Positions 4,207 to 15,012 of a DNA stretch of 15,092 bases are shown piece by piece; position 1 is the first letter of the stretch, and each line of letters starts with the position of its first letter. This DNA comes from a virus: the UHGV virus genome UHGV-1737584. One strand, given 5' to 3'. The notes beneath the pieces were generated by a model. It made no database searches and was not told the origin of the DNA. It saw only the letters and a program-made list of their open reading frames with translations. Made by a program: the position numbers and the translations under genes.

Positions 4207-4562
4207 AGCACCACGTCCTGTGTGATAGTTATATCCCTGATACGAATGGATATTTTCAACTTATCAAAAGCATCTCCCTCGGCTACTGACAAGCCAGAAA
4301 TCGGTATGTCAGGTAAATCTACCGTCAGTTTTTGCAACAGCATTGCCTCAACCGCAATTTGAACATGCGACAAGTTGGTCGGTTCGTGTTTAAACTGCGG
4401 TAAAACATTGCCCCATGACGGATCTCCGTATACCTCACCCTGATAAGTGTTTAGCCACTCATATAAACGAGCGCCCCAGGCCTCCTCCTGGGACTCATAC
4501 GTTTTTACGCCGGATAACTCCAGCGTCAGCAAAGGATCAATTTCGTTATTGTTGGCCATCAA
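4203..4562 (-). CDS. 119-aa small structural protein, possibly baseplate wedge (gp25/W-like size class)
   Basis: Complete ORF; start overlaps the stop of the Sit-like gene (4559-4562) and its stop overlaps the next start. Assignment by size and synteny only (P1 pmgA by position). Confidence 0.5.
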   Translation of the reverse strand: MMANNNEIDPLLTLELSGVKTYESQEEAWGARLYEWLNTYQGEVYGDPSWGNVLPQFKHEPTNLSHVQIAVEAMLLQKLTVDLPDIPISGLSVAEGDAFDKLKISIRIRDITITQDVVL

Positions 4563-7500
4563 TCAACTCTCGCGTAGTCATTCATCAACGGATCATCAAT
4601 TGACAGTGGTACCGTGCGCATAACGCCCGGCTGAGGCGTGCTGACCTTTACGACAGTTCCCTGGCCTTTCGCCGAGTCTTTGGTGTGCTCTTCAATCCTG
4701 GCAAGCAATGAGGTCATCTGCGCAAACAGCCGCTTCGTTTCACCATCAAGTGAAACGGTATTATCAGCCAACTGCATTGTCGGCTTGGCACCGGAGCCAC
4801 CAAGGTCACTAATAACCTGTCCGTCTATCTGCATACGACCGGTTGGTTGCTGCAAATCGTTGGCGGCAGTCGTCACCTGGGACGTGGAGGCTGGTTCAGG
4901 CGCATTATTTTTCCGCATCCCCGGCGAGTTGCGGAGTTTATCGAATAGTCCATCAATCCCCATTTGTGCGCCGAGCTGGTCAAAGTAACTTGAGTTGTTG
5001 GCCACCGGACGCGCTTCTTCAACTGGCATCGGGGTATCAACATACACATTACCAGCTGCTGTTGCGGTCCCCTTCCCTCGTGCACGTTCTTCTAGCGTTC
5101 CCTGAACGACTTCCCGACGCATCCCCCGGCCATTCATGAATTTGTTGACCAGATCGTTAACGCCAACAGCATTGCCGATTTTGTCGACCAGACCGCCTTT
5201 CTCAAACGGGCTATCACCAGGGGTAAACGCCAAGCCAGGGGTAAACGCCAAGCCAGGGGTAAACGCCAAGCCAGTATACTGATCGATAACGGCGTTATCA
5301 GGCAGTGGTCCCCTCACTCCATATTGCGCCCCACCCTGTGCTCCTGCCCCAGGTGTATAGATTTCACCACCTAAATAGCGAGCACGATGAGTATTGACCT
5401 TGATCGCGTACTCACGGTTTTCCTTCGATAAGTCACCGGTGCCTTTTTTCCACTTATTAATAGTGCCAAACCCAGCGTTATATGCAGTGATGGCCTCGTT
5501 TAAGTCTCCATTGGCTTGCTTCAGATACTTGCTCATGAGAAGAGCCGCAGCTTCTGCCGATTTCACAGGATCAAACGATTCACCTTCAGCTAAGCCAGTC
5601 TCTTCACGAGCAATGCCCGTGAACTGAAACATTCCTAGAGCACCAGTTTGGGATTTTGCGTATGGATTACCACCAGATTCAGTTGCAGCAATCGCGTAAA
5701 GAGTGCCTTCAGGAAGACCATATTTATTCTCTAGTTCAGCAAAATACGGAGCTAACTTATCGAGATTTGCCTTACCTTCAGCGCCAAGGCTTCCGACTTT
5801 TACATCTAAGTTGCCATTATTGTAGGTATCAGCAGCTTTCTGAATGTCATTCCCAGTGCCGGTGGTATTACGCGACGATGATGACGAGCTATTTTGACCA
5901 ATAGCTTTATCAATTTTCTGCAACGCGCGATTGCCCGTTTCTACGGCATTTGCATTGATAATCTGATTGGCAGTTTGTTTAACTGTTTTATTGCTATCTT
6001 TCGCTGTGTCCAGTGCCGCATTTATCACGCGGGTAGCAATATTACTCTGTTTGGCATCGGATTCAGTTTTAGAATTAGACGTCTCCTGGTGGCTATTAAC
6101 CGGAGCTTTTAACTCTGGAGTGATTTCTTTCGCATTAGCCTCGCCGATCGGATTGGGTATTTTTGATACAATCATTGCCGCAGGGGTATTTTTAACGGCA
6201 TCAACCGCTGCATCTAATGCTTTACCGGGTAAATTTTTAACCCCATCCCAAATATTACCAGCCGCCTCTTTAATGTGTTTCCCTGGGTTCTTAATGAAAT
6301 CAATTGCACTATCAATTGCATCACTGAAAACCTGTTTCAGGTTATCGACAGTAAAGAAGTCTTTGATGGCATCCAGCTTTTCAAGCAGCTTATTAGATGT
6401 ATCGCTAAACCATGCTGAAACAGCATCACCAATCTTTGCTGTGTAATCATCGAACTTGGTAGAAATCGTGTCGCCAAGGTTAGAAATATATGTTTCTAAG
6501 TTGGTAATCCCACTATCAATGGCCTGGGCAATACTTTCCGTCGAAAATGATTGCAACATATTGCCGATATCCTCAAATCCAAGTGATTTGAGAACCTCAC
6601 CAATGGCGCTGCTAATACCAGATACAAGCCCCCCCATATCAAGAACATTAGCTAACGTATAAGCGGCTTTTTGCTGGAATGATGGATCTTGTCCTGATTT
6701 AAGCCCAAACGCTCGACGTTGCGCTTCTGTATCATTCCAACCGGTTACCGCATCATAAATACCTCCAGCCACTGTGCCGACCAGGGGAATTGCGCGTAAC
6801 GCCCCTTTACCAACTGCCTTTAATCCAAGTTTACCTGCTGCCCGGGCAGCCAAATCTCCGCCTTCATGGGCGAGAGTCTTCTTGCCACCACCGCGTAGCA
6901 TTCCTACAAGTTTCTTTGCCCCCAGAGCGCCAAAAGCGAGTGCTCCAGCTTTTTTCAGCATGCCACGCCCCATTAACAACGACGCGACGCCACCGGCCCC
7001 CTTCCCTAACAGGCTAAATAATTTGGACAGCAAGCCGCCCTTCTTTTTCCCGGTGTTTTTGGCTATCTGATCAAGGGCGCTGAGAATCTTGTCATTGCCC
7101 TCTTTAATTTCGCTGGTCTGCTCCTGAAGTTCCTGAACCGTCCGTTTTTGGGTGTTAACCTGAACGACATCGGCACTATTTTGCGATTTACGCCTAAAAA
7201 AACCTTTTCTACGGCTGTTATCGTCATTGCCACGAATCACATCGGCAATAGACTTTCTGGCACCATTAAGCGATCCACCAACTTCTTTTGATATCCCGCC
7301 AAGCTCCTTCCCTGCGGCCCACAATGGACCAGCAACGGCATAACCTAACGCATCGACGGCACGAGTCTCTGAAGGGTTACCTATGCCTTCAGCTACTTTT
7401 GACAGTTTTTTTAATAAACCTGATTCAGCATTTAGACGCTCATCATCCTCTTTGCGCCTGTCCTTTTCAGCACGTTCAGCACGGGCATCTTCCGCTGCGG

Positions 7501-7987
7501 CCTTACTCCCTGACTTTCCAATAAAACGACCACGCGCATCGCGTTGGTTTTGGCTTTTTTGCGCACCGTCTTTTTGACCGAACATTTCGCGAGCGTGTTC
7601 GGCTGCTTCGGTCCGTTGCGCCTTTACATCTTCTGTTATAGCCTTCTTGCGTCGTTTTTTACCCTTTCGCGTAGTTGATTTGGCCTGCGGTTCCTGTAGA
7701 GCAACATCCTCCTGAACTACACGAGAAACGTCCCCTAAATTAAGCCGTTTCATTGCCTCAACAATAGGGTCCACTGATGGCGCATTGGCCACAAAGTCTG
7801 GCTGGGAATTTTCGATTGTGCGATTTAATGCCGACACACTGCGAGAGACAGGATCAACTGTAGCAACTCGCCCCCCTTTCAAATCTTCAACGGCTTCCCG
7901 AATACCTGCAAGCTCTTCCAGCTCTTTTGCGCTGGCGGTTTCAACCGTCCTTATCACATCGTCAATGTTGGCGTTTTTTCTTTCCAT
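4559..7987 (-). CDS. sit: Structural injection transglycosylase / tape-measure-like protein, 1142 aa, with soluble lytic transglycosylase (SLT) domain
   Basis: Longest ORF in window. Contains GLPEGTLYAIAATESGGNPYAKSQTGALGMFQFTGIARE (aa ~760-800), the family-1 lytic transglycosylase motif with catalytic Glu-Ser (Glu codon at complement 5678-5680). N-terminal part is K/R/E-rich, followed by a Gly/Ala-rich hydrophobic glycine-zipper segment (aa ~300-420). P1 Sit is about 1140 aa as I recall. Confidence 0.9.
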   Translation of the reverse strand: MERKNANIDDVIRTVETASAKELEELAGIREAVEDLKGGRVATVDPVSRSVSALNRTIENSQPDFVANAPSVDPIVEAMKRLNLGDVSRVVQEDVALQEPQAKSTTRKGKKRRKKAITEDVKAQRTEAAEHAREMFGQKDGAQKSQNQRDARGRFIGKSGSKAAAEDARAERAEKDRRKEDDERLNAESGLLKKLSKVAEGIGNPSETRAVDALGYAVAGPLWAAGKELGGISKEVGGSLNGARKSIADVIRGNDDNSRRKGFFRRKSQNSADVVQVNTQKRTVQELQEQTSEIKEGNDKILSALDQIAKNTGKKKGGLLSKLFSLLGKGAGGVASLLMGRGMLKKAGALAFGALGAKKLVGMLRGGGKKTLAHEGGDLAARAAGKLGLKAVGKGALRAIPLVGTVAGGIYDAVTGWNDTEAQRRAFGLKSGQDPSFQQKAAYTLANVLDMGGLVSGISSAIGEVLKSLGFEDIGNMLQSFSTESIAQAIDSGITNLETYISNLGDTISTKFDDYTAKIGDAVSAWFSDTSNKLLEKLDAIKDFFTVDNLKQVFSDAIDSAIDFIKNPGKHIKEAAGNIWDGVKNLPGKALDAAVDAVKNTPAAMIVSKIPNPIGEANAKEITPELKAPVNSHQETSNSKTESDAKQSNIATRVINAALDTAKDSNKTVKQTANQIINANAVETGNRALQKIDKAIGQNSSSSSSRNTTGTGNDIQKAADTYNNGNLDVKVGSLGAEGKANLDKLAPYFAELENKYGLPEGTLYAIAATESGGNPYAKSQTGALGMFQFTGIAREETGLAEGESFDPVKSAEAAALLMSKYLKQANGDLNEAITAYNAGFGTINKWKKGTGDLSKENREYAIKVNTHRARYLGGEIYTPGAGAQGGAQYGVRGPLPDNAVIDQYTGLAFTPGLAFTPGLAFTPGDSPFEKGGLVDKIGNAVGVNDLVNKFMNGRGMRREVVQGTLEERARGKGTATAAGNVYVDTPMPVEEARPVANNSSYFDQLGAQMGIDGLFDKLRNSPGMRKNNAPEPASTSQVTTAANDLQQPTGRMQIDGQVISDLGGSGAKPTMQLADNTVSLDGETKRLFAQMTSLLARIEEHTKDSAKGQGTVVKVSTPQPGVMRTVPLSIDDPLMNDYARVD
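5217..5274 (-). repeat. Perfect tandem repeat, 3.2 copies of an 18-bp unit (CCAGGGGTAAACGCCAAG), encoding (LAFTPG)x3 in the Sit-like protein
   Basis: Read directly: copies at 5217-5234, 5235-5252, 5253-5270 plus a partial CCAG. In frame; translates to TGLAFTPGLAFTPGLAFTPG just C-terminal of the SLT domain. Confidence 0.95.
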
Positions 7988-8068
7988 GATCTTATCGCCT
8001 ACCGCTTCGGTTTAAGTTTTTCTTCCAGTTTCTCCAACAGGAAAAACGCATAGGATTCAGTAAGCCTT

Positions 8069-8950
8069 TCAGCGTCCTGAATCGGTATACCCCCATACAA
8101 AACCAGGTTGGACACTAAGGTCTGATAGCTTTTCAATCCCCACCTGTGGAATGAAGTCGATAGCCCGAAAGGGCACCCACAGACGGGTATACGCACCCTC
8201 TGTGGACTCCTTTTTATCCTGATTTGGGCATTTATGCGGCGGGAGACGAAGACGCATTTCGCCTTTATCGATGTAGCACGGTAAACCATGTTCGAGCTTT
8301 TCATGAGCCAGTCGGATGTGTGCCGCCAGCTTCATAAATTCAGTATCAATGGCCATCCGTTTAATCGTTTCATAACGACGCTCGGCCTGATCTTCACGAG
8401 TACCGCTAACATCGTTATAAAGCTCACACTGATAAGCGAATTCCCAAAAACGCAAATCAACGATCGCTTCTTTGAATTCCGCGTCGTCTTCAGGTGGCAA
8501 TGCTGCACGGCGCATCTCCAGCATTTCCATTGCCCAACCATCAAGCGGCACGATACGCCATTGATAAGGTACTCCCTCTACAGACACCTCAATATCGTCA
8601 ATGAAAGGTTCCACTTCCAGGACCTGGATATCTTCAGCCAGAGCATTCATATCGCAATCGTAATAATGCTCTTTACCGCAATGTTTACAGGTGTAGGTGA
8701 ATGTCTCGACCGGTGTTTCACGGGAGCCGGTAAATATCCACCATAACGCGGTAATCCGGTCCTGCGCCGTCCATGTCAGGGGATCATGTTTCGCGGGTTC
8801 AGCCAGCAAGGCTTTTAAATACGCCGTTGTCTGTTGTTCTTGTTCCTCCGGTGTTATCGAGTTGAAACGCATCGCATCAGCAATATTTGGCTGACGGAAC
8901 TGGATCAATTCAGTTGGCCGCGATGGTAGCGGGAAAAGGGGTAAAAGCAT
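8069..8950 (-). CDS. 293-aa putative morphogenetic protein with a Cys cluster (C-x2-C-x7-C)
   Basis: Complete ORF on the tail-operon strand, 81 bp upstream of sit. Contains TCKHCGKEHYYDCD (Cys 88, 91, 99) plus Cys 175, 225, 241. Function unknown (P1 pmgB by position). Confidence 0.6.
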   Translation of the reverse strand: MLLPLFPLPSRPTELIQFRQPNIADAMRFNSITPEEQEQQTTAYLKALLAEPAKHDPLTWTAQDRITALWWIFTGSRETPVETFTYTCKHCGKEHYYDCDMNALAEDIQVLEVEPFIDDIEVSVEGVPYQWRIVPLDGWAMEMLEMRRAALPPEDDAEFKEAIVDLRFWEFAYQCELYNDVSGTREDQAERRYETIKRMAIDTEFMKLAAHIRLAHEKLEHGLPCYIDKGEMRLRLPPHKCPNQDKKESTEGAYTRLWVPFRAIDFIPQVGIEKLSDLSVQPGFVWGYTDSGR

Positions 8951-9586: not shown

Positions 9587-10194
<608 letters not shown>

Positions 10195-10233
10195 TTGTCA
10201 TTTGTGACAGTATGCTCGCAATCGTAGTGATTA

Positions 10234-10773
10234 CTACCACCAACTGCTAGCTTTCTTCTCTCTAGCTTTTCCTTCGCTTTGCAGTAAATCTTTACTTCCT
10301 GTAGAAATATTTCTATTTGCATCAGCCTCAGACTGAATTACATCTGTCTTAGCTGCTCTCTCCTTCAACTCCTGCTCTATAAAATCGTTTTCTCGCTGGA
10401 CACGAGCCGCTTTTGCTTGCAGTTCGAGTTTCATGCTTTCGAGTTGCAGCTTGCGAAGCTCATCCTCATAAGCTTGATCTCGCTTCTTGTCATTTGCTAG
10501 CTCGGCTTCTCGTTTCGCTCTACGTTCATTTTCTGCAGCAACACGCTGTTTTTCGCGTGCAGCAGCGGCAGATGCTGCTTTTTCTCTTCTAATACGTTCA
10601 GCTTGTGCTTGTTGGCGAATAAGTTCTTTTCTGGCATCCTCAGCTTGCTGCTCTTTAGCTCGCCCTTCATTTTCCGCTTGAGCAATAGCAGCAATTTGAC
10701 TTTGCAACGAGTTAGCCAAGGCAGTGCCTACACTAAACGTAGAAAAGATTAGAAATAAAATAATTTTATTCAT
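10234..10773 (-). CDS. Exported (signal-peptide) coiled-coil protein, 179 aa, TolA-like charged helical repeats
   Basis: N-terminus MNKIILFLIFSTFSVGTALA is a classic Sec signal peptide. The mature part is a highly charged Ala/Glu/Arg/Lys/Gln-rich predicted coiled coil ending in SSWW. Lies in the P1 sim-locus position. Confidence 0.75.
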   Translation of the reverse strand: MNKIILFLIFSTFSVGTALANSLQSQIAAIAQAENEGRAKEQQAEDARKELIRQQAQAERIRREKAASAAAAREKQRVAAENERRAKREAELANDKKRDQAYEDELRKLQLESMKLELQAKAARVQRENDFIEQELKERAAKTDVIQSEADANRNISTGSKDLLQSEGKAREKKASSWW

Positions 10774-10776
10774 AAA

Positions 10777-11298
10777 TTATTTCTTTTCTGGACAAGTAGC
10801 ATTTGGCTGAATTCGAGTTTCATTATCTTTAGTTGAAATAAGCACAGCAAGCCCCGTTGTAAACTGGCATGCTTTACCAACTTGAGTTGAAGTGAACACC
10901 TTAGTTCCTTCTTTATAAGTCAGTGAAACACCTTCAACAATTGTTTTATCACTAACCAAAGAACCAGCCGCTGCACCAAGAGCCGCACCACCAGTACCGC
11001 CAGCTACAGCACCCAGTGTCGATGTGCCTTTAACATTATAACCGGCAACGCCCCCAGCAACAGCTCCCAGTACCGCACCAAATGTCTGTGCCGCTTCTTT
11101 ATTAGCTTTATTATCAACTTTCACTTTAGCTGGAAGCACAGAGATAATATTGACTGTCTTTGTTTCCTGCTTCGAATTCAATTGAGCGGTATCATAAACA
11201 TCGGCAGCATAATCAGCACCGCTAGATTGACACCCAGAAAGAAGAATTGCAGATACAACAAGAGCGCATAAAGTATACTTTTTAGACATAAGAATCAT
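10777..11298 (-). CDS. Lipoprotein with glycine-zipper segment, 173 aa (or 170 aa from the second ATG at complement 11287-11289)
   Basis: Lipobox LLSGC after a KK-containing hydrophobic leader (MSKKYTLCALVVSAILLSGC). Central GAVLGAVAGGVAGY...GAVAGGTGGAALGAAAGS glycine zipper, typical of SlyB/PCP-like outer-membrane lipoproteins. Two C-terminal Cys. Only 3 bp separate it from the downstream gene. Confidence 0.8.
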   Translation of the reverse strand: MILMSKKYTLCALVVSAILLSGCQSSGADYAADVYDTAQLNSKQETKTVNIISVLPAKVKVDNKANKEAAQTFGAVLGAVAGGVAGYNVKGTSTLGAVAGGTGGAALGAAAGSLVSDKTIVEGVSLTYKEGTKVFTSTQVGKACQFTTGLAVLISTKDNETRIQPNATCPEKK

Positions 11299-11634: not shown

Positions 11635-11663
11635 TTGACCTTTTAATCGTTCAGGCTTATAGT
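11635..11663 (+). promoter_or_regulatory. Near-consensus sigma70 promoter TTGACC-17 nt-TATAGT, candidate constitutive promoter for the c4-icd-ant transcript
   Basis: -35 at 11635-11640, 17-nt spacer, -10 at 11658-11663. Lies ~120 nt upstream of the structured RNA and has no operator-like sequence over it. Confidence 0.6.
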
Positions 11664-11783
11664 TTCGCCGTCGTAGCAAATTCTGCGACCGGGTTTAGCA
11701 GCCTGAATGATTGTGCGGACAGCCGCAGATATCCGATATTGCGGTATTTTTGTGTCCGTAAAACCGCGTTACGCCCAAATTAT

Positions 11784-11860
11784 GGTGGGGCGTGATGGGG
11801 AGGCTTCGGCCTGCTGGTTTCACAATCGCCAGTCTGCTAACCCCGTCACGTCCTGCCACC
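11784..11860 (+). ncRNA. c4: c4-like antisense repressor RNA, ~77 nt, structured
   Basis: Nested stems read from sequence: GGUGG (11784-11788) with CCACC (11856-11860); GUGAUGGGG (11792-11800) with CCCCGUCAC (11841-11849, one G-U); internal GGC-UUCG-GCC tetraloop hairpin (11802-11811). Single-stranded segments are complementary to downstream sites at the icd RBS. The 77-nt span matches the reported length of P1 c4, but I chose the ends knowing that length. Confidence 0.55.
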
Positions 11861-11910
11861 TGTTTAGCAGCGGGTAGCAGGTTGTTAAACCTGATTGTGA
11901 GGCCGTAACT

Positions 11911-12132
11911 ATGGTTAATGCCAATCCTTGCGCACGCCAAGAATTCATCTGGCGTTTCTATTCCTGTAAAAAACACCACTATCACTTCGTCATCGCAGCA
12001 ACAGAAGACGAAGCACGCTCTCAATTGCCTGATGGTCCCTGCATTTTTACTGCCCGTTTTTCAACTAACTCGCGCAATTCACTTAGTTACTGGAACCTCC
12101 CCTTCTCTGCCGACGTTCAGGGGGATTTATGA
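11911..12132 (+). CDS. icd: Small 73-aa protein, translationally coupled to the antirepressor gene (Icd-like)
   Basis: ORF with GAGG 8 nt upstream of its ATG; its TGA overlaps the ant start (ATGA at 12129-12132). The RBS region is complementary to the upstream RNA. The 73-aa length and position match P1 icd as I recall. Confidence 0.6.
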   Translation: MVNANPCARQEFIWRFYSCKKHHYHFVIAATEDEARSQLPDGPCIFTARFSTNSRNSLSYWNLPFSADVQGDL

Positions 12133-13172
12133 AAAAACCTCTCGTCACCCGTAATGAAATAGCCGAAGCGATCGCCCTGCATACAACCTGTATGCCGACA
12201 CGGGAGATCCCCGGCGCAATTGCCAACTATTTCATGATAACCAGACGTTTTTATACCCGAACAGATAAGGCTGTGATCAACAAGCTACTGATAGCCGAGA
12301 TCAGGGATTATTTGATTGAACAAGGACGTCTACGTTACGCAACAGTGGCAGCAGAAATGAGAAAGGAGGCACATAGAATGACCGGTAATAATTTGAATGT
12401 TGAAAAACCAGCACCTGTTGCTTCAGCTACGCCATCACCAGCTGTGAATGTTATCTCCAACACTGGAGACACAATCGACAGCCAGACACTGTTAAAGATG
12501 GTCAATGAAGCTCGTAAGTTATGTGGGGAACCAGAGGTTCGGAACAACAAATTCATCGAAAAAATACTCGACGAATTAGAAGGTGAGGACGGTTACACAA
12601 AAAGTGCAACCGTGCCGCCAGGTGGCGGTACGCCTATGGTTGTCATAACCATGACCTACAAACAAGCCCTGCGAGTCGCCGCGCGCGAGTCAAAAGCGGT
12701 CCGCCGTTCGCTGATCGACAAACTGGAAGAATTACAGCAGGCAAACTCCCCTACCCCATCGATCCCCCAGACATTACCAGAAGCCCTACGCCTGGCTGCC
12801 GAGTTAGCAGAACAGAAAATGCAGTTGGAACAACAGCTGGTGGCCGCAGCCCCTAAAGTCGATTTTGCCGACCGGGTATCAGTGGCCAATGGAATCCTGA
12901 TCGGGAACTTTGCAAAGGTCGTTGGACTTAAGCAAAACGCCCTTTTCTCATGGTTGCGCCAGAATGGCATTCTCATGGCTTTTGGAGCGCGCAAAAACGT
13001 ACCGCGCCAACAGTACATCAACGCGGGGTATTTCACGGTGAAAGAAGTGGTGCTGGATGATGAAAATGGCTACCAGATACGGCTGACGCCCCAATTAACG
13101 GGTAAAGGCCAGCAGTGGTTAACTCGCAAGCTACTTGATGCTGGTTTGTTAAAACCAGTAGCAATAGGTTAA
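12129..13172 (+). CDS. ant1: Antirepressor Ant1, 347 aa, with C-terminal ANT/KilA-C type domain
   Basis: Strong SD AGGGGG upstream of the ATG. C-terminal ~130 aa (LPEALRLAAELAEQ...GKGQQWL...LLDAG) is the phage antirepressor C-terminal domain and is paralogous to the KilA C-terminus in this window. Confidence 0.85.
   Translation: MKKPLVTRNEIAEAIALHTTCMPTREIPGAIANYFMITRRFYTRTDKAVINKLLIAEIRDYLIEQGRLRYATVAAEMRKEAHRMTGNNLNVEKPAPVASATPSPAVNVISNTGDTIDSQTLLKMVNEARKLCGEPEVRNNKFIEKILDELEGEDGYTKSATVPPGGGTPMVVITMTYKQALRVAARESKAVRRSLIDKLEELQQANSPTPSIPQTLPEALRLAAELAEQKMQLEQQLVAAAPKVDFADRVSVANGILIGNFAKVVGLKQNALFSWLRQNGILMAFGARKNVPRQQYINAGYFTVKEVVLDDENGYQIRLTPQLTGKGQQWLTRKLLDAGLLKPVAIG
12378..13172 (+). CDS. 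ant2: Nested in-frame antirepressor Ant2 (264 aa) from an internal start
   Basis: Internal in-frame ATG at 12378-12380 preceded by a consensus SD AAGGAGG at 12364-12370. P1 is known to make Ant1 and Ant2 from in-frame overlapping starts. Confidence 0.6.
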   Translation: MTGNNLNVEKPAPVASATPSPAVNVISNTGDTIDSQTLLKMVNEARKLCGEPEVRNNKFIEKILDELEGEDGYTKSATVPPGGGTPMVVITMTYKQALRVAARESKAVRRSLIDKLEELQQANSPTPSIPQTLPEALRLAAELAEQKMQLEQQLVAAAPKVDFADRVSVANGILIGNFAKVVGLKQNALFSWLRQNGILMAFGARKNVPRQQYINAGYFTVKEVVLDDENGYQIRLTPQLTGKGQQWLTRKLLDAGLLKPVAIG

Positions 13173-13336: not shown

Positions 13337-14137
13337 ATGCAACAAACATTCAATGCGGATATGAATATATCAAACCTTCATCAAAATGTCGATCCTTCAA
13401 CCACTCTGCCCGTTATTTGTGGTGTTGAAATTACGACCGACCGCGCTGGCCGTTACAACCTTAATGCTCTACACAGAGCGAGCGGACTCGGTGCCCATAA
13501 AGCGCCAGCTCAATGGCTAAGAACGCTGTCAGCCAAACAGCTCATCGAAGAGCTTGAAAAAGAAACTATGCAGAATTGCATAGTTTCGTTCGAAGGCCGT
13601 GGCGGCGGCACTTTTGCCCATGAATTGCTCGCAGTGGAGTACGCAGGCTGGATTTCTCCCGCGTTTCGGCTGAAGGTAAACCAGACATTTATCGACTATC
13701 GAGCCGGAAGATTACAACCTGCTATTCCGAAGAGCCTCCCAGAAGCTCTCCGTTTGGCTGCTGACCTGGCAGAGCAAAAGCAACGGCTGGAGCAAAAAAT
13801 GCTGATGGATGCACCTAAAGTCGAATTCGCCGAACGCGTTGCTACCGCCAGCGGGGTTCTAATCGGCAACTATGCCAAAGTGCTCGGCCTGGGCCAAAAC
13901 TATCTCTTCACCTGGTTGCGTGATAACGGAATTCTGATCGCAACCGGTGAACGCAGGAACGTCCCCAAACAAGAATACATATCCCGTGGGTATTTCACCC
14001 TTAAAGAAACCGTGATCGATACAAGCAATGGAAGCAGGATTTCTTTCACGACTCGTATAACCGGCAAAGGTCAGCAGTGGCTGATGAAGCGATTGCTTGA
14101 TGCTGGTGTGCTGGTACCTGTCGCGGCAACGCGCTAA
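13337..14137 (+). CDS. kilA: KilA protein, 266 aa: N-terminal KilA-N domain plus C-terminal ANT-type domain
   Basis: SD GGAG 7 nt upstream. N-terminal region (ICGVEITTDRAGRYNLNALHRASG...) has the KilA-N DNA-binding-domain character. C-terminal ~130 aa are paralogous to Ant. The 266-aa length matches P1 KilA as I recall. Confidence 0.8.
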   Translation: MQQTFNADMNISNLHQNVDPSTTLPVICGVEITTDRAGRYNLNALHRASGLGAHKAPAQWLRTLSAKQLIEELEKETMQNCIVSFEGRGGGTFAHELLAVEYAGWISPAFRLKVNQTFIDYRAGRLQPAIPKSLPEALRLAADLAEQKQRLEQKMLMDAPKVEFAERVATASGVLIGNYAKVLGLGQNYLFTWLRDNGILIATGERRNVPKQEYISRGYFTLKETVIDTSNGSRISFTTRITGKGQQWLMKRLLDAGVLVPVAATR

Positions 14138-14166: not shown

Positions 14167-15012
14167 ATGCTGGCTAAAGTCACTTTCCTGAGCTGTATAA
14201 CGATGAGCGATTTTACTTTTTCTGGCTATGAATTGGCCTGCTTTGTAACACACTCCGGTCTATCCCGTAGCGCCGGGCATATCCTGTCGCAATGTGCAAA
14301 TCTAGCGGCAACAACCAGTGAATACTTCATTCACAAGCCTCACCGCCTGATCGCGGCAGAAACTGGTTATAGCCAATCAACCGTCGTTCGTGCATTCCGT
14401 GAAGCTGTAAACAAAGGAATTCTGTCTGTAGAGATTGTTATCGGCGATCACCGTGAACGTCGCGCTAACCTGTACCGGTTTACACCATCCTTTTTGGCCT
14501 TTGCTCAACAAGCCAAAAATGCGCTAATTGAAAGCAAATTAAAGATCTCTTCAGCCGCAACCAAGGTTAAAGCAGTTCTCGCTAAGACATTGGCTTTATT
14601 TGATTTTTTATCCACACCCCCATGTCAAAATGATACCCCCTCCCCCTGTCAGGATGACGTGGCAATAAAGAATAAGAAGTCACAAATTAAAAAAACAAAA
14701 AGATCAGTTTCCGGCGGTGCCGAAACGACCAGCCTCAAAAAACTGACTTCATGGATCGCCGAGGCAAAAGCAAAGGCTGACAATCTGCGGTTATCCAAAA
14801 AACGCGCTCAAAAACATGAGTTCAAGCAGAAAGTAGAGGCGGCAGCGCGGAAATATGCTTACCTGAAGAACAAGCGTTCTCCTGATATTGGCGGGGTATC
14901 AAACTTCGATAATTTGCCGCATTGCATGACGGTAAACGAAGCTCTTAATGCGGTTTTAGCCAAAAATAAAGATAACGAACAATGGGGTATACCGGCAGGA
15001 TTCAGAGGGTGA
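14167..15012 (+). CDS. repL: Lytic replicon protein RepL-like, 281 aa, with HTH-like segment
   Basis: ORF immediately after kilA. Segment LIAAETGYSQSTVVRAFREAVNKGIL looks like a helix-turn-helix. Contains an internal short direct repeat and an A-rich tract. The 281-aa length matches P1 RepL as I recall. No clear SD at 14167; an in-frame alternative ATG lies at 14203. Confidence 0.7.
   Translation: MLAKVTFLSCITMSDFTFSGYELACFVTHSGLSRSAGHILSQCANLAATTSEYFIHKPHRLIAAETGYSQSTVVRAFREAVNKGILSVEIVIGDHRERRANLYRFTPSFLAFAQQAKNALIESKLKISSAATKVKAVLAKTLALFDFLSTPPCQNDTPSPCQDDVAIKNKKSQIKKTKRSVSGGAETTSLKKLTSWIAEAKAKADNLRLSKKRAQKHEFKQKVEAAARKYAYLKNKRSPDIGGVSNFDNLPHCMTVNEALNAVLAKNKDNEQWGIPAGFRG

What the first reader, a model, noticed from the sequence alone, without database searches (positions are those of the whole stretch)
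4559..7987. Giant virion protein combining a charged N-terminus, glycine-zipper membrane-like segment and central SLT domain
The domain order fits a protein that spans the envelope during injection and cuts peptidoglycan locally, comparable to tape-measure or ejection proteins carrying muralytic domains. The catalytic Glu-Ser motif is intact (Glu codon at complement 5678-5680).
Basis: partly seen in the sequence, partly recalled or inferred. Interest (0 to 1): 0.4.

Follow-up and report, generated by a model that had tools for sequence, protein, structure and literature searches.

The report
Phage P1-type tape measure protein Sit
This ORF is the already-described sit gene of a P1/P7-type E. 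coli phage-plasmid, the tail tape measure protein with a built-in cell-wall-cutting (SLT) domain, so the finding is real but ordinary.

Summary
The ORF at 4559-7987 (minus strand, 1142 aa) is real. It is the sit gene of a P1/P7-like Punavirus phage-plasmid: 95.7-98.3% nucleotide identity to P1, P7 and relatives, in the same tail/baseplate operon. P1 Sit is annotated "structural injection transglycosylase; tail ruler". Published work detects it in virions, finds it essential and treats it as the tape measure protein. The SLT domain (Pfam E=5.6e-27, aa 748-857; confident model for aa 730-870) and Glu770 (GAA, complement 5678-5680) are confirmed, and Glu-Ser is invariant in 92/92 distant homologues. 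The N-terminus is highly charged and aa 313-400 are Gly/Leu/Ala/Lys-rich, but no segment qualifies as a transmembrane helix and the model shows low-confidence coil there. The conserved part is a polar ~95-residue core (aa 395-490) shared by a wide family of long proteins; more than half lack SLT. Minor new points: a GLAFTP triplication found only here, and marked Sit length polymorphism (1130-1307 aa). Side-lead: an unannotated, conserved reading frame between pmgB and sit, overlapping the end of pmgB in its +1 frame.

The parts
4559..7987 (-). sit CDS: 1142-aa tape measure protein / structural injection transglycosylase, P7-type allele
   Evidence: ORF list and translation. 95.7-98.3% nt identity to sit of P1, P7, RCS47 and Ro157c2YLVW. 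97% aa identity to P1 Sit and 98% to P7 Sit.
7088..7987 (-). aa 1-300: highly charged, largely helical N-terminal region. Many relatives carry a ~99-aa tandem duplication here, inserted after aa 39.
   Evidence: 35.7% charged residues. Helices in the AF2 model, at low confidence. The duplication is seen in the 1224-1307 aa relatives.
Net basic, with no transmembrane-grade hydrophobic run.
   Evidence: Composition, KD scan and uncharged-run analysis. pLDDT <50 and coil. Sequence not conserved in distant relatives.
6518..6805 (-). aa 395-490: conserved core module of the wider Sit-like family (ALRAIP..GT...AG.DA..G..D.E.Q..AFGLK.GQ...QK..Y..ANVLDMGGLVSG...)
   Evidence: 61 representatives of at least 500 aa share it, 26 with SLT and 35 without. 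Near-invariant P401, G404, D412, A413, G416, D419, Q423, F427, Q439, K440, G452, G453, G470, A487. pLDDT 73-92 for aa 410-445.
6092..6142 (-). aa 616-632: single copy of the 17-aa unit (EANAKEIT-PELKAPVNS) that is tandemly repeated, with up to 5 extra copies, in other Sit alleles
   Evidence: Alignment of length variants.
5363..5800 (-). aa 730-875: SLT (family-1 lytic transglycosylase, goose-lysozyme-like) domain. Lacks the 10-aa insertion that P1 Sit has between the ES and GMFQ motifs.
   Evidence: Pfam PF01464 E=5.6e-27. PDB sequence alignment to MltC and MltD. AF2 pLDDT 93-98. Foldseek hits to MltD/Slt/Slt70/MltC/MltE/MltF. The P1-specific insertion is shown.
5678..5680 (-). GAA codon for Glu770, the predicted catalytic acid/base of the ES motif
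   Evidence: Aligned to the Glu of the MltC ES motif. Invariant 92/92.
5217..5274 (-). Perfect 18-bp tandem repeat x3.2 encoding (GLAFTP)x3. P1, P7 and every other relative examined have one copy.
   Evidence: TRF. Protein alignments. No exact match in IMG/VR. In the listed best plasmid matches (438 records matched) the matched stretch spans 95 nt where the query spans 131 nt, 36 nt shorter, consistent with one copy. The exact protein is not in the 15-billion-sequence collection.
4562..4870 (-). aa ~1040-1142: C-terminal region conserved in several distant full-length relatives. Inferred to be the baseplate-hub-proximal end.
   Evidence: Separate conserved stretch at query ~1015-1140 in P0122, P0125-P0129, P0132, P0135 and P0137. 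The hub location is inferred from the low-resolution density in the baseplate centre reported for P1.
10185..10203 (-). Late promoter LPsit (-22 box AAATGACAA, -10 TAGAAT) driving pmgC-tub-pmgB-sit-pmgA-bplA-16
   Evidence: Annotated in P1 and P7. The sequence is conserved in the window.
8069..8950 (-). pmgB (tubC in P7), essential tail morphogenesis gene immediately upstream of sit. Proposed tape-measure chaperone.
   Evidence: PHROG 1854 E=3.7e-154. Annotation. Knockout phenotype and chaperone proposal in PMC9024508.
7999..8170 (-). Unannotated conserved reading frame 'X', +1 relative to pmgB. It is open from the conserved TTT_C (8170-8167) through the pmgB stop (8071-8069) to TAG 8001-7999, 11 nt before the sit ATG. 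The conserved peptide is ..YQTLVSNLVLYGGIPIQDAERLTESYAFFLLEKLEEKLKPKR.
   Evidence: Homologous peptide in 7 lineages, down to 34% PmgB identity. 8/8 polymorphic sites at X-frame codon position 3, 7 of them synonymous. Only sporadically called as a hypothetical protein.

Best explanation
The ORF is the orthologue of phage P1/P7 Sit, the tail tape measure protein (TMP) of a P1-like myovirus that is maintained as a plasmid prophage. Shown here: orthology, operon context, an intact family-1 lytic transglycosylase domain with catalytic Glu770, and a modular architecture. The modules are a charged helical N-terminus, a Gly/Lys-rich linker, a conserved polar core (aa 395-490), a helical region, SLT (aa 730-875) and a conserved C-terminus. 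Taken from the literature on P1: Sit is in the virion, is essential, gives only weak density in the baseplate centre, and is gone from contracted particles. Inferred mechanism: during late gene expression from LPsit, Sit assembles on the baseplate hub with its C-terminal end and the tube polymerises around it, so that Sit sets tail length. On adsorption and sheath contraction, Sit is expelled ahead of the DNA. In the periplasm the SLT domain uses Glu770 as the single acid/base to cleave MurNAc-beta-1,4-GlcNAc bonds, forming 1,6-anhydroMurNAc ends, and so opens the peptidoglycan locally at the tube tip. P1's spike gp5 lacks the lysozyme domain that T4 gp5 has, so Sit would supply that activity. 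The remaining, largely non-globular parts may then help form or line the conduit to the inner membrane, but nothing here or in the literature demonstrates that step.
For: Orthology: megablast 95.7-98.3% identity over the full length to sit of P1, P7, RCS47, JL22 and Ro157c2YLVW, and 97-98% aa identity to P1/P7 Sit. Synteny pmgC-tub-pmgB-sit-pmgA-bplA-16-R-S, with LPsit conserved. SLT: Pfam E=5.6e-27. The ES, G-M-F-Q and A-Y-N-A-G motifs align to MltC and MltD. E770/S771 are invariant 92/92, G785 92/92, Q788 91/92, Y836 91/92, N837 89/92. AF2 pLDDT is 93-98 and the fold matches MltD/Slt70/MltC/MltE/MltF. TMP role, from the literature: LC-MS/MS detection with 23 peptides, gp5 lacking lysozyme, and the TMP assignment (PMC9024508); CRISPRi EOP <2.9e-5 (PMC10695390); low-resolution density in the baseplate centre and TMP ejected in contracted particles (PMC12810830). 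Modularity: the SLT slot is empty in phage D6 Sit and in 35 of 61 family representatives, and is occupied by a VgrG3-like peptidoglycan hydrolase domain in P0170. That pattern fits a scaffold (ruler) carrying an exchangeable wall-cutting cargo.
Against: No curated tape-measure family (Pfam or NCBIfam) matches Sit, so the TMP role is not supported by sequence-family membership. The ruler arithmetic is imperfect. 1142 aa at 1.5 A per residue gives 171 nm, whereas the P1 tube is 53 rings x 40 A, about 212 nm, within a tail of 245 nm (PMC10304247). That requires about 1.86 A per residue, meaning substantial extended, non-helical stretches. Sit has never been resolved structurally. I found no direct enzymatic assay of Sit or of P1 virions in the searchable literature. 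CRISPRi essentiality may include polar effects on downstream baseplate genes.
Confidence: 0.88

Rival explanations
1. Sit is an internal head (core) ejection protein like T7 gp16, stored in the capsid and ejected to build a trans-envelope tunnel, and is not a tail tape measure.
For: Some P1-like GenBank records label it 'protein inside capsid D' or 'internal (core) protein'. Foldseek matches a chain of the 'core proteins of mature T7' entry 9jyy_I (rank 43, 157 columns, 28% identity) and the T7 ejectosome entry 7k5c_B. PHROG 342 'internal virion protein with endolysin domain' hits at E=8.7e-20.
Against: The PHROG 342 match is confined to the SLT domain (aa 748-866) and the 9jyy_I match covers only 157 alignment columns. 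The gene lies in the tail/baseplate late operon, between the tube-initiator and pmgB genes and the baseplate wedge genes. The P1 cryo-EM work places the TMP in the tail and baseplate centre and lists other proteins, DarA and Hdf, as head-internal. The pmgB and pmgA neighbours give tail-less phenotypes.
Confidence: 0.03
2. Sit spans the host envelope through genuine transmembrane glycine-zipper helices in aa ~313-470 and forms the DNA channel itself. On this view the SLT domain is accessory.
For: aa 313-400 are 25% Gly with repeated small-xxx-small spacing. The adjacent core (aa 395-490) is the most widely conserved part of the family and contains moderately hydrophobic stretches: AIPLVGTVAGGIY (KD 1.54) and MGGLVSGISSAIG (KD 1.28). 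From my own knowledge, other TMPs (T5 Pb2, lambda gpH) have been reported to interact with membranes. SLT is dispensable in many family members.
Against: The highest 19-residue KD mean is 1.35, below the usual ~1.6, and every top window contains at least 2 charged residues. The longest uncharged runs in the region are 11-13 residues. Family-averaged hydropathy peaks at only 1.19. The invariant residues of the core are polar or charged (D412, D419, Q423, Q439, K440), which is unlike a lipid-facing zipper. No Pfam glycine-zipper hit. AF2 shows coil at pLDDT <50 for aa 328-410. A monomer-based prediction cannot exclude an oligomeric membrane-inserted state.
Confidence: 0.12
3. Sit is a lysis enzyme (endolysin) acting from within at the end of the cycle, or a lytic tail fibre.
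For: PHROG 669 is labelled 'endolysin' (E=5.4e-133). PHROGs 28504 and 21143, and the RefSeq P7 record, use 'lytic tail fiber protein'.
Against: These labels derive from the shared SLT domain. P1 has a separate, well-studied SAR endolysin, Lyz (references in PMC6116005). Sit is a 120-kDa virion component. The tail fibre genes are S, R and U downstream.
Confidence: 0.01

Closest known systems
Sit of bacteriophage P1 (AAQ14011) and P7 (AAQ07509), 'structural injection transglycosylase / tail ruler'
   Same: Orthologue: 97% (P1) and 98% (P7) amino-acid identity, with the same operon, promoter and domain order.
   Different: Has (GLAFTP)x3 where both have x1. Like P7, it lacks P1's 10-aa insertion between the ES and GMFQ motifs. 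1142 aa versus 1140 (P1) and 1130 (P7). Many natural alleles are longer, at 1224-1307 aa.
Phage T5 Pb2 and mycobacteriophage TM4 Tmp (tape measure proteins carrying muralytic motifs)
   Same: The same concept: a ruler protein inside the tail tube that carries a peptidoglycan-degrading domain and is ejected at infection (cited as the analogy in PMC9024508, and in the review PMC6116005).
   Different: Those are siphovirus TMPs with different catalytic domains (from my own knowledge: a peptidase-type domain in Pb2, Rpf-like motifs in TM4). There was no detectable sequence relationship here, as neither appeared in any search. Sit sits in a contractile tail and has its SLT domain about two-thirds of the way along the chain.
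Phage T7 gp16 (internal core / ejectosome protein with an N-terminal SLT domain)
   Same: A virion-borne family-1 lytic transglycosylase domain used at entry. There is a structural match over the SLT domain.
   Different: gp16 is stored in the capsid of a podovirus and builds the ejectosome. The similarity does not extend beyond SLT. The genomic context also differs.
Bacterial family-1 lytic transglycosylases (Slt70, MltC, MltD, MltE; Pfam PF01464, GH23)
   Same: The catalytic fold and the ES / G-x-x-Q / A-Y-N-x-G motifs.
   Different: Here the domain is embedded in a 1142-aa non-globular phage structural protein, with no signal peptide or lipobox and none of the accessory domains of the bacterial enzymes.
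Phage T4 gp5 (spike lysozyme) together with gp29 (tape measure)
   Same: Functional analogy: a contractile-tail phage needs a ruler and a local wall-cutting activity at the tube tip.
   Different: T4 splits the two jobs between two proteins. In P1 the spike gp5 lacks a lysozyme domain and the muralytic domain is in the ruler (PMC9024508).

Membership tests
Punavirus (P1/P7) Sit orthologue group | Full-length high identity to P1/P7 sit | tested here: met
   95.7% (P1), 97.7% (P7) and 98.3% (Ro157c2YLVW) nt identity over 99-100% of the ORF. 97-98% aa identity.
Punavirus (P1/P7) Sit orthologue group | Position in the LPsit late operon: pmgC-tub-pmgB-sit-pmgA-bplA-16, followed by R and S | tested here: met
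   The neighbouring window ORFs match the corresponding PHROGs and P1/P7 annotations. The LPsit sequence is present at 10203-10185.
Family-1 lytic transglycosylase (SLT, PF01464 / GH23) | Profile match above the curated threshold | tested here: met
   94.1 bits against a gathering cut-off of 21.3, E=5.6e-27, profile positions 2-115 of 117.
Family-1 lytic transglycosylase (SLT, PF01464 / GH23) | Catalytic Glu in the E-S motif, plus the G-[LM]-x-Q and A-Y-N-x-G motifs | tested here: met
   E770-S771, G785-M-F-Q788 and A835-Y-N-A-G839. These align to MltC and MltD and are invariant or near-invariant in 92 homologues.
Family-1 lytic transglycosylase (SLT, PF01464 / GH23) | Goose-lysozyme-like alpha-helical fold | tested here: met
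   AF2 pLDDT 93-98 for aa 730-870. The 29 Foldseek hits with E<=0.001 are lytic transglycosylases (MltD, Slt, Slt70, MltC, MltE, MltF and others), apart from one T7 ejectosome entry.
Family-1 lytic transglycosylase (SLT, PF01464 / GH23) | Non-hydrolytic cleavage of the MurNAc-GlcNAc bond giving 1,6-anhydroMurNAc | not testable with these tools
   Needs an enzyme assay and muropeptide LC-MS. No published assay for Sit was found.
Phage tail tape measure protein (functional class) | Gene lies between the tail tube/chaperone genes and the baseplate/hub genes | tested here: met
   tub and pmgB lie upstream; pmgA (gp25-like), bplA (gp6-like wedge) and 16 lie downstream.
Phage tail tape measure protein (functional class) | Length proportional to tail length (about 1.5 A per residue) | tested here: inconclusive
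   1142 aa x 1.5 A = 171 nm, versus a tube of 53 x 40 A = 212 nm and a tail of 245 nm. That needs 1.86 A per residue. It is reachable only if the ~514 non-helical residues outside SLT are partly extended.
Phage tail tape measure protein (functional class) | Largely alpha-helical, non-globular chain | tested here: inconclusive
   The AF2 monomer model is 55% helix in aa 1-729 but at low confidence (mean pLDDT 56). [quoted passage not shown]
Phage tail tape measure protein (functional class) | Membership of a curated TMP sequence family (Pfam or NCBIfam/TIGRFAM tape-measure models) | tested here: not met
   No tape-measure model hit at E<=0.1 in Pfam or E<=1 in NCBIfam. Sit belongs to its own un-named family (PHROG 2533).
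Phage tail tape measure protein (functional class) | Preceded by a tail assembly chaperone gene with a programmed frameshift extension (gpG/gpGT type) | tested here: inconclusive
   A conserved +1-frame extension ('X') overlaps the end of pmgB and ends just before sit in 7 lineages. TTT_C occurs at a conserved Phe codon in 7/7. Whether X is made by frameshifting or as a separate small protein is unresolved.
Phage tail tape measure protein (functional class) | Present in the virion tail lumen, ejected on infection; indels change tail length | not testable with these tools
   Literature for P1: LC-MS/MS detection, density in the baseplate centre and TMP absent from contracted particles. No tail-length genetics for sit was found.
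Glycine-zipper transmembrane segment | Match to a glycine-zipper family, or a hydrophobic uncharged stretch of about 18-20 residues or more | tested here: not met
   No Pfam glycine-zipper hit for Sit. Maximum KD-19 of 1.35 with at least 2 charges per window. Longest uncharged runs in aa 300-470 are 11-13 residues. AF2 shows coil at pLDDT <50.
T7 gp16-type internal core protein | Homology beyond the SLT domain, and a head/core gene context | tested here: not met
   The PHROG 342 match covers SLT only and the 9jyy_I match covers 157 alignment columns. The gene is in the tail/baseplate operon.

The most novel reading that the evidence does not exclude
The defining, ancient part of Sit may not be the SLT domain. 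It may instead be the polar ~95-residue core (aa 395-490) that follows a disordered Gly/Lys-rich linker. That core would mark a large, un-named family of tape-measure-like proteins in which the wall-cutting domain is a swappable or dispensable cargo: absent from D6 Sit and from more than half of the representatives, and replaced by a VgrG3-like hydrolase in one. The core would then carry the conserved post-ejection function, for example docking to an inner-membrane or periplasmic host factor, or oligomerising into the DNA conduit. In addition, the natural length alleles (1130-1307 aa, from a 99-aa duplication and a 17-aa repeat) would give P1-like phages tails differing by up to ~30 nm. The unannotated X frame between pmgB and sit would be the missing gpGT-like chaperone extension, made by a +1 shift at UUU_C.
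Probability: 0.25. Interest if true: 0.45.

Novelty: already known. Interest (0 to 1): 0.12.

Why it matters
For the finding itself, very little. It re-discovers the sit gene of phage P1/P7, whose architecture and presumed role were proposed in 1998-2004 and re-examined in 2022-2026. Its value is as a positive control, since a reader working from raw sequence inferred the published function. Three by-products could interest P1 and phage-tail specialists. First, Sit is strongly length-polymorphic in natural P1-like plasmids, which is a ready-made test of the ruler hypothesis for a 245-nm contractile tail whose TMP looks too short under the 1.5 A/residue rule. Second, the SLT domain is an optional insert in a much wider family defined by a different conserved core. 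Third, a conserved but unannotated coding frame sits between pmgB and sit in a phage that has been a genetics workhorse for 70 years.

Tried and rejected
1. Transmembrane reading of the Gly-rich segment. I tested it by Kyte-Doolittle scan, uncharged-run search, hydrophobic moment, family-averaged hydropathy, the Pfam glycine-zipper families and AF2. It is not supported. No dedicated TM predictor was available.

2. Solved structure of Sit. The PDB sequence search found only bacterial lytic transglycosylases. The P1 cryo-EM papers did not resolve Sit.

3. Curated TMP families in Pfam and NCBIfam: no hit.

4. Full-length AF2 model. Only the SLT domain and a short part of the core are confident (mean pLDDT 56, pTM 0.36), so nothing can be said about the overall shape. 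The Foldseek hits therefore reflect SLT only.

5. Search for the (GLAFTP)x3 allele elsewhere. There was no exact match in IMG/VR. In the listed best plasmid matches the matched stretch is 36 nt shorter than the query, consistent with one copy. The exact protein is not in the protein collection. I cannot exclude an assembly or slippage artefact in the source sequence.

6. IMG/VR scan for divergent pmgB-sit junctions. It returned only relatives at 98% identity or more, which served for the polymorphism test but not for deep conservation. The genome-contig scan supplied the divergent lineages.

7. Looking for an in-frame PmgB-X fusion protein in the databases: none found. P0271 joins the two frames at CCC_TTT_C, but that may be a homopolymer error.

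8. Literature search for a described pmgB frameshift, or for a muralytic assay of Sit: nothing found.

9. Endolysin, tail-fibre and capsid-internal labels in some records: rejected, because they are propagated from the SLT domain alone.

Full report
**1. Observation.** The window contains an ORF on the minus strand from 7987 (ATG) to 4559 (stop included) encoding 1142 aa.

- The codon at complement 5678-5680 is GAA, in frame, and encodes Glu770 within AIAATESGGNPYA.
- Pfam finds one significant domain, SLT (PF01464), at aa 748-857 with E=5.6e-27, 94 bits against a cut-off of 21.3.
- Residues 1-300 are 35.7% charged, against 25.3% for the whole protein.
- Residues 313-400 are 25% Gly, 19% Leu, 17% Ala and 16% Lys, with several small-xxx-small-xxx-small motifs.

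**2. Identity.**
- The ORF is 95.7% identical at the DNA level to sit of phage P1 (AF234172), 97.7% to sit of P7 and 98.3% to that of phage vB_EcoM-Ro157c2YLVW, over its full length.
- The whole 15-kb window is 98.4% identical to E. coli plasmids, and 800 plasmid records match it.
- Gene order around it is that of the P1/P7 late operon: LPsit promoter, pmgC, tub, pmgB, sit, pmgA, bplA, 16, R, S on one strand. On the other strand lie the c4 antisense RNA, icd, ant1/2, kilA and repL.
- The window carries the P7-type lipoprotein genes (upf50.5/upf50.0) where P1 has simABC.
- At the protein level it is 98% identical to P7 Sit and 97% to P1 Sit.

**3. What is known about Sit.**
- The curated P1 record calls it [quoted passage not shown]. 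An older P1 fragment record calls it "structural lytic transglycosylase".
- Gonzales et al. 2022 (PMC9024508) detected Sit in purified virions by LC-MS/MS (23 peptides). They argued that it, not gp6, is the tape measure protein. They noted the SLT domain at ~750-900 and pointed out that the P1 spike gp5 lacks the lysozyme domain of T4 gp5, so Sit probably supplies the wall-cutting activity.
- A genome-wide CRISPRi study scored sit as essential.
- Cryo-EM of P1 (PMC12810830) could not resolve Sit. It saw low-resolution density in the baseplate centre and reported that the TMP is gone from contracted particles.
- I found no direct enzymatic assay of Sit.

**4. Tests of the catalytic domain.**
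- The PDB sequence search aligns aa 743-843 to MltC and MltD. Glu770-Ser771 lies on the ES motif, GMFQ on GLMQ and AYNAG on AYNGG.
- Among 1.84 billion cluster representatives, 7081 proteins match at E<=0.001.
- In 92 sequences whose SLT stretch aligns (the window plus representatives; 21-57% identical to the window in this domain), Glu770 and Ser771 are invariant. G785, Q788, Y836, N837 and G839 are conserved in 89-92 of the 92.
- AlphaFold2 models aa 730-870 at pLDDT 93-98.
- Foldseek against the PDB returns family-1 lytic transglycosylases (MltD, Slt, Slt70, MltC, MltE, MltF) plus T7 core/ejectosome entries, matched through the SLT part.

**5. Test of the "membrane-like glycine zipper".**
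- The best 19-residue Kyte-Doolittle window scores 1.35, and all top windows contain at least two charged residues.
- The longest uncharged runs in aa 300-470 are 11-13 residues.
- Pfam reports no glycine-zipper family for Sit. A weak, sub-threshold hit to such a family occurs instead in the neighbouring lipoprotein Upf50.5.
- AF2 gives pLDDT <50 and no secondary structure for aa 328-410.
- In an alignment of 61 distant relatives the Gly/Lys-rich stretch is not conserved in sequence. The segment that follows it, aa 395-490, is strongly conserved, with polar or charged near-invariant positions: D412, D419, Q423, Q439, K440 and G452-G453.

This looks like a low-complexity linker followed by a folded or interaction module, not a lipid-embedded zipper. 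An oligomeric membrane-active state cannot be excluded by these monomer-based criteria.

**6. Architecture in the wider family.**
- Among representatives of at least 500 aa, 61 share the aa 395-490 core. Of these, 26 also have SLT and 35 do not.
- Wherever these parts occur together their order is the same: N-terminal region, core, SLT, then a conserved ~100-residue C-terminus.
- Phage D6's Sit homologue has no detectable SLT despite its annotation.
- One representative has a VgrG3-like C-terminal peptidoglycan-hydrolase domain at about that position.

The SLT domain is thus an exchangeable cargo on a conserved scaffold, which fits the tape-measure-plus-lysin model. No curated tape-measure family in Pfam or NCBIfam matches Sit. 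The TMP assignment therefore rests on context, size, proteomics, genetics and cryo-EM, not on family membership.

**7. Ruler arithmetic.**
- The P1 tail is 2450 A long, with 53 tube rings at a 40 A rise, about 2120 A (PMC10304247).
- The "120 nm" used in the 2022 ruler argument is therefore too small.
- At 1.5 A per residue, 1142 aa span 1713 A. Spanning the tube needs ~1.86 A per residue.
- In the low-confidence AF2 model, 482 residues outside SLT are helical and 514 are not. The length is reachable if the non-helical parts are partly extended.

This is a mild inconsistency with the simple rule, not a refutation.

**8. What is particular to this allele.**
- A perfect 18-bp tandem repeat (5217-5274) encodes GLAFTP three times. 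P1, P7 and all nine other length variants aligned have one copy.
- The exact 54-nt triplet is absent from IMG/VR.
- In the listed best plasmid matches (438 records matched) the matched stretch is 36 nt shorter than the query, consistent with one copy.
- The exact protein is absent from the 15-billion-sequence collection.
- Like P7, the allele lacks P1's 10-aa insertion between the ES and GMFQ motifs.
- Sit is length-polymorphic across natural P1-like elements, at 1130-1307 aa. The causes are a ~99-aa tandem duplication after aa 39 and one to five additional copies of a 17-aa unit after aa 623.

**9. Side-lead outside the finding.**
- The 81-nt "spacer" between the pmgB stop and the sit start is open in the frame +1 to pmgB. 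It encodes ..LYGGIPIQDAERLTESYAFFLLEKLEEKLKPKR*, ending 11 nt before the sit ATG.
- A homologous peptide in the same frame and position exists in Cronobacter phage JK004, phage D6, and prophage-like loci of Pantoea, Serratia, Rosenbergiella and Shewanella, with PmgB identity down to 34%. The PmgB-frame C-termini differ in length and sequence.
- Among 86 close relatives (11 haplotypes), all 8 variable sites fall at codon position 3 of this frame and 7 are synonymous in it. The three sites inside the overlap are non-synonymous in PmgB.
- Canonical start codons precede the conserved part in some lineages, but not in D6.
- All seven lineages have TTT_C at a conserved Phe codon upstream (window 8170-8167, TTT CGG in four of them). 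The frame is open from there to its stop.
- The peptide is not annotated in the P1 or P7 reference records. It appears only sporadically as a 29-73 aa hypothetical protein.
- I found no paper describing it.

It may be a small overlapping gene. Alternatively it may be a +1 frameshift extension of PmgB, analogous to the gpG/gpGT chaperone pair that typically precedes tape measure genes. That cannot be decided here.

**10. Verdict.** The feature is already known, so interest is low. The by-products in sections 6-9 are modest leads for specialists.

Noticed in passing
window 7999-8170 (-), overlapping the 3' end of pmgB (8069-8950) and ending 11 nt before the sit ATG (7987): Unannotated reading frame, +1 relative to pmgB, encoding a peptide (..YQTLVSNLVLYGGIPIQDAERLTESYAFFLLEKLEEKLKPKR*). 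It is conserved in 7 lineages down to 34% PmgB identity. All 8 polymorphic sites among 86 close relatives fall at its third codon positions, and 7 are synonymous. TTT_C at a conserved Phe codon (8170-8167) is present in 7/7 lineages. It is either a small overlapping gene or a +1 frameshift extension of the putative tape-measure chaperone PmgB. It is not annotated in the P1/P7 reference records.
   Followed up: partly
window 5217-5274 (-), Sit aa 906-923: A perfect 18-bp tandem triplication encodes (GLAFTP)x3, C-terminal to the SLT domain. Every other Sit allele examined has one copy. It is absent from IMG/VR, and the best plasmid matches are 36 nt shorter at this site, consistent with one copy. 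It could be recent slipped-strand expansion or an assembly artefact.
   Followed up: yes
Sit relatives P0001-P0120, relative to window aa 39/40 and aa 623/624: Natural Sit alleles range from 1130 to 1307 aa. The causes are a ~99-aa tandem duplication near the N-terminus and 1-5 extra copies of a 17-aa repeat (PELKAPVNSEANAKEIT). If Sit is the ruler, P1-like phages should differ in tail length by several tube rings.
   Followed up: partly
literature versus Sit length (whole ORF 4559-7987): The P1 tail is 2450 A, with a tube of 53 rings x 40 A (PMC10304247). The 2022 ruler argument used 120 nm. At 1.5 A per residue Sit spans only ~171 nm, so about 1.86 A per residue is needed. The simple ruler rule does not fit well.
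   Followed up: partly
L004 (phage D6) 4480-8262: D6 'putative tail injection transglycosylase' has no detectable SLT domain (Pfam E<=0.01). Its annotated start probably lies too far upstream, since it reads through the region that encodes the conserved X peptide in another frame.
   Followed up: partly
window 10234-11298 (-): P7-type upf50.0 (DUF5384, E=3e-43) and upf50.5 occupy the place of P1's simABC superimmunity genes. upf50.5 is a lipoprotein with weak, sub-threshold TraT-like and glycine-zipper-2TM hits. These mark the element as P7-like rather than P1-like in this module.
   Followed up: no
window 11657-11863 (+): Rfam finds the C4 antisense RNA (RF01695, 69.6 bits) and its a1/b1 target element (RF03163, 54.6 bits) of the P1 immunity region immI. 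They are followed by icd, ant1/ant2 (12129-13172), kilA (13337-14137) and repL (14167-15012).
   Followed up: no
window ~10193-10159 (-): An 11-bp perfect inverted repeat (CTCGTAGAATC ... GATTCTACGAG) includes the -10 hexamer of the late promoter LPsit and would form a hairpin at the 5' end of the operon transcript. The same arms are present in P1, with a different loop.
   Followed up: no
window 8069-8950 (-), PmgB: PmgB has a weak, sub-threshold Pfam hit to 'T4 bacteriophage base plate protein' (PF12322, E=0.0042, aa 15-122) and conserved Cys/His positions (C88, H90, C91, H95 across P1, JK004 and D6). It is labelled 'head morphogenesis' in PHROGs, yet its knockouts lack tails.
   Followed up: no
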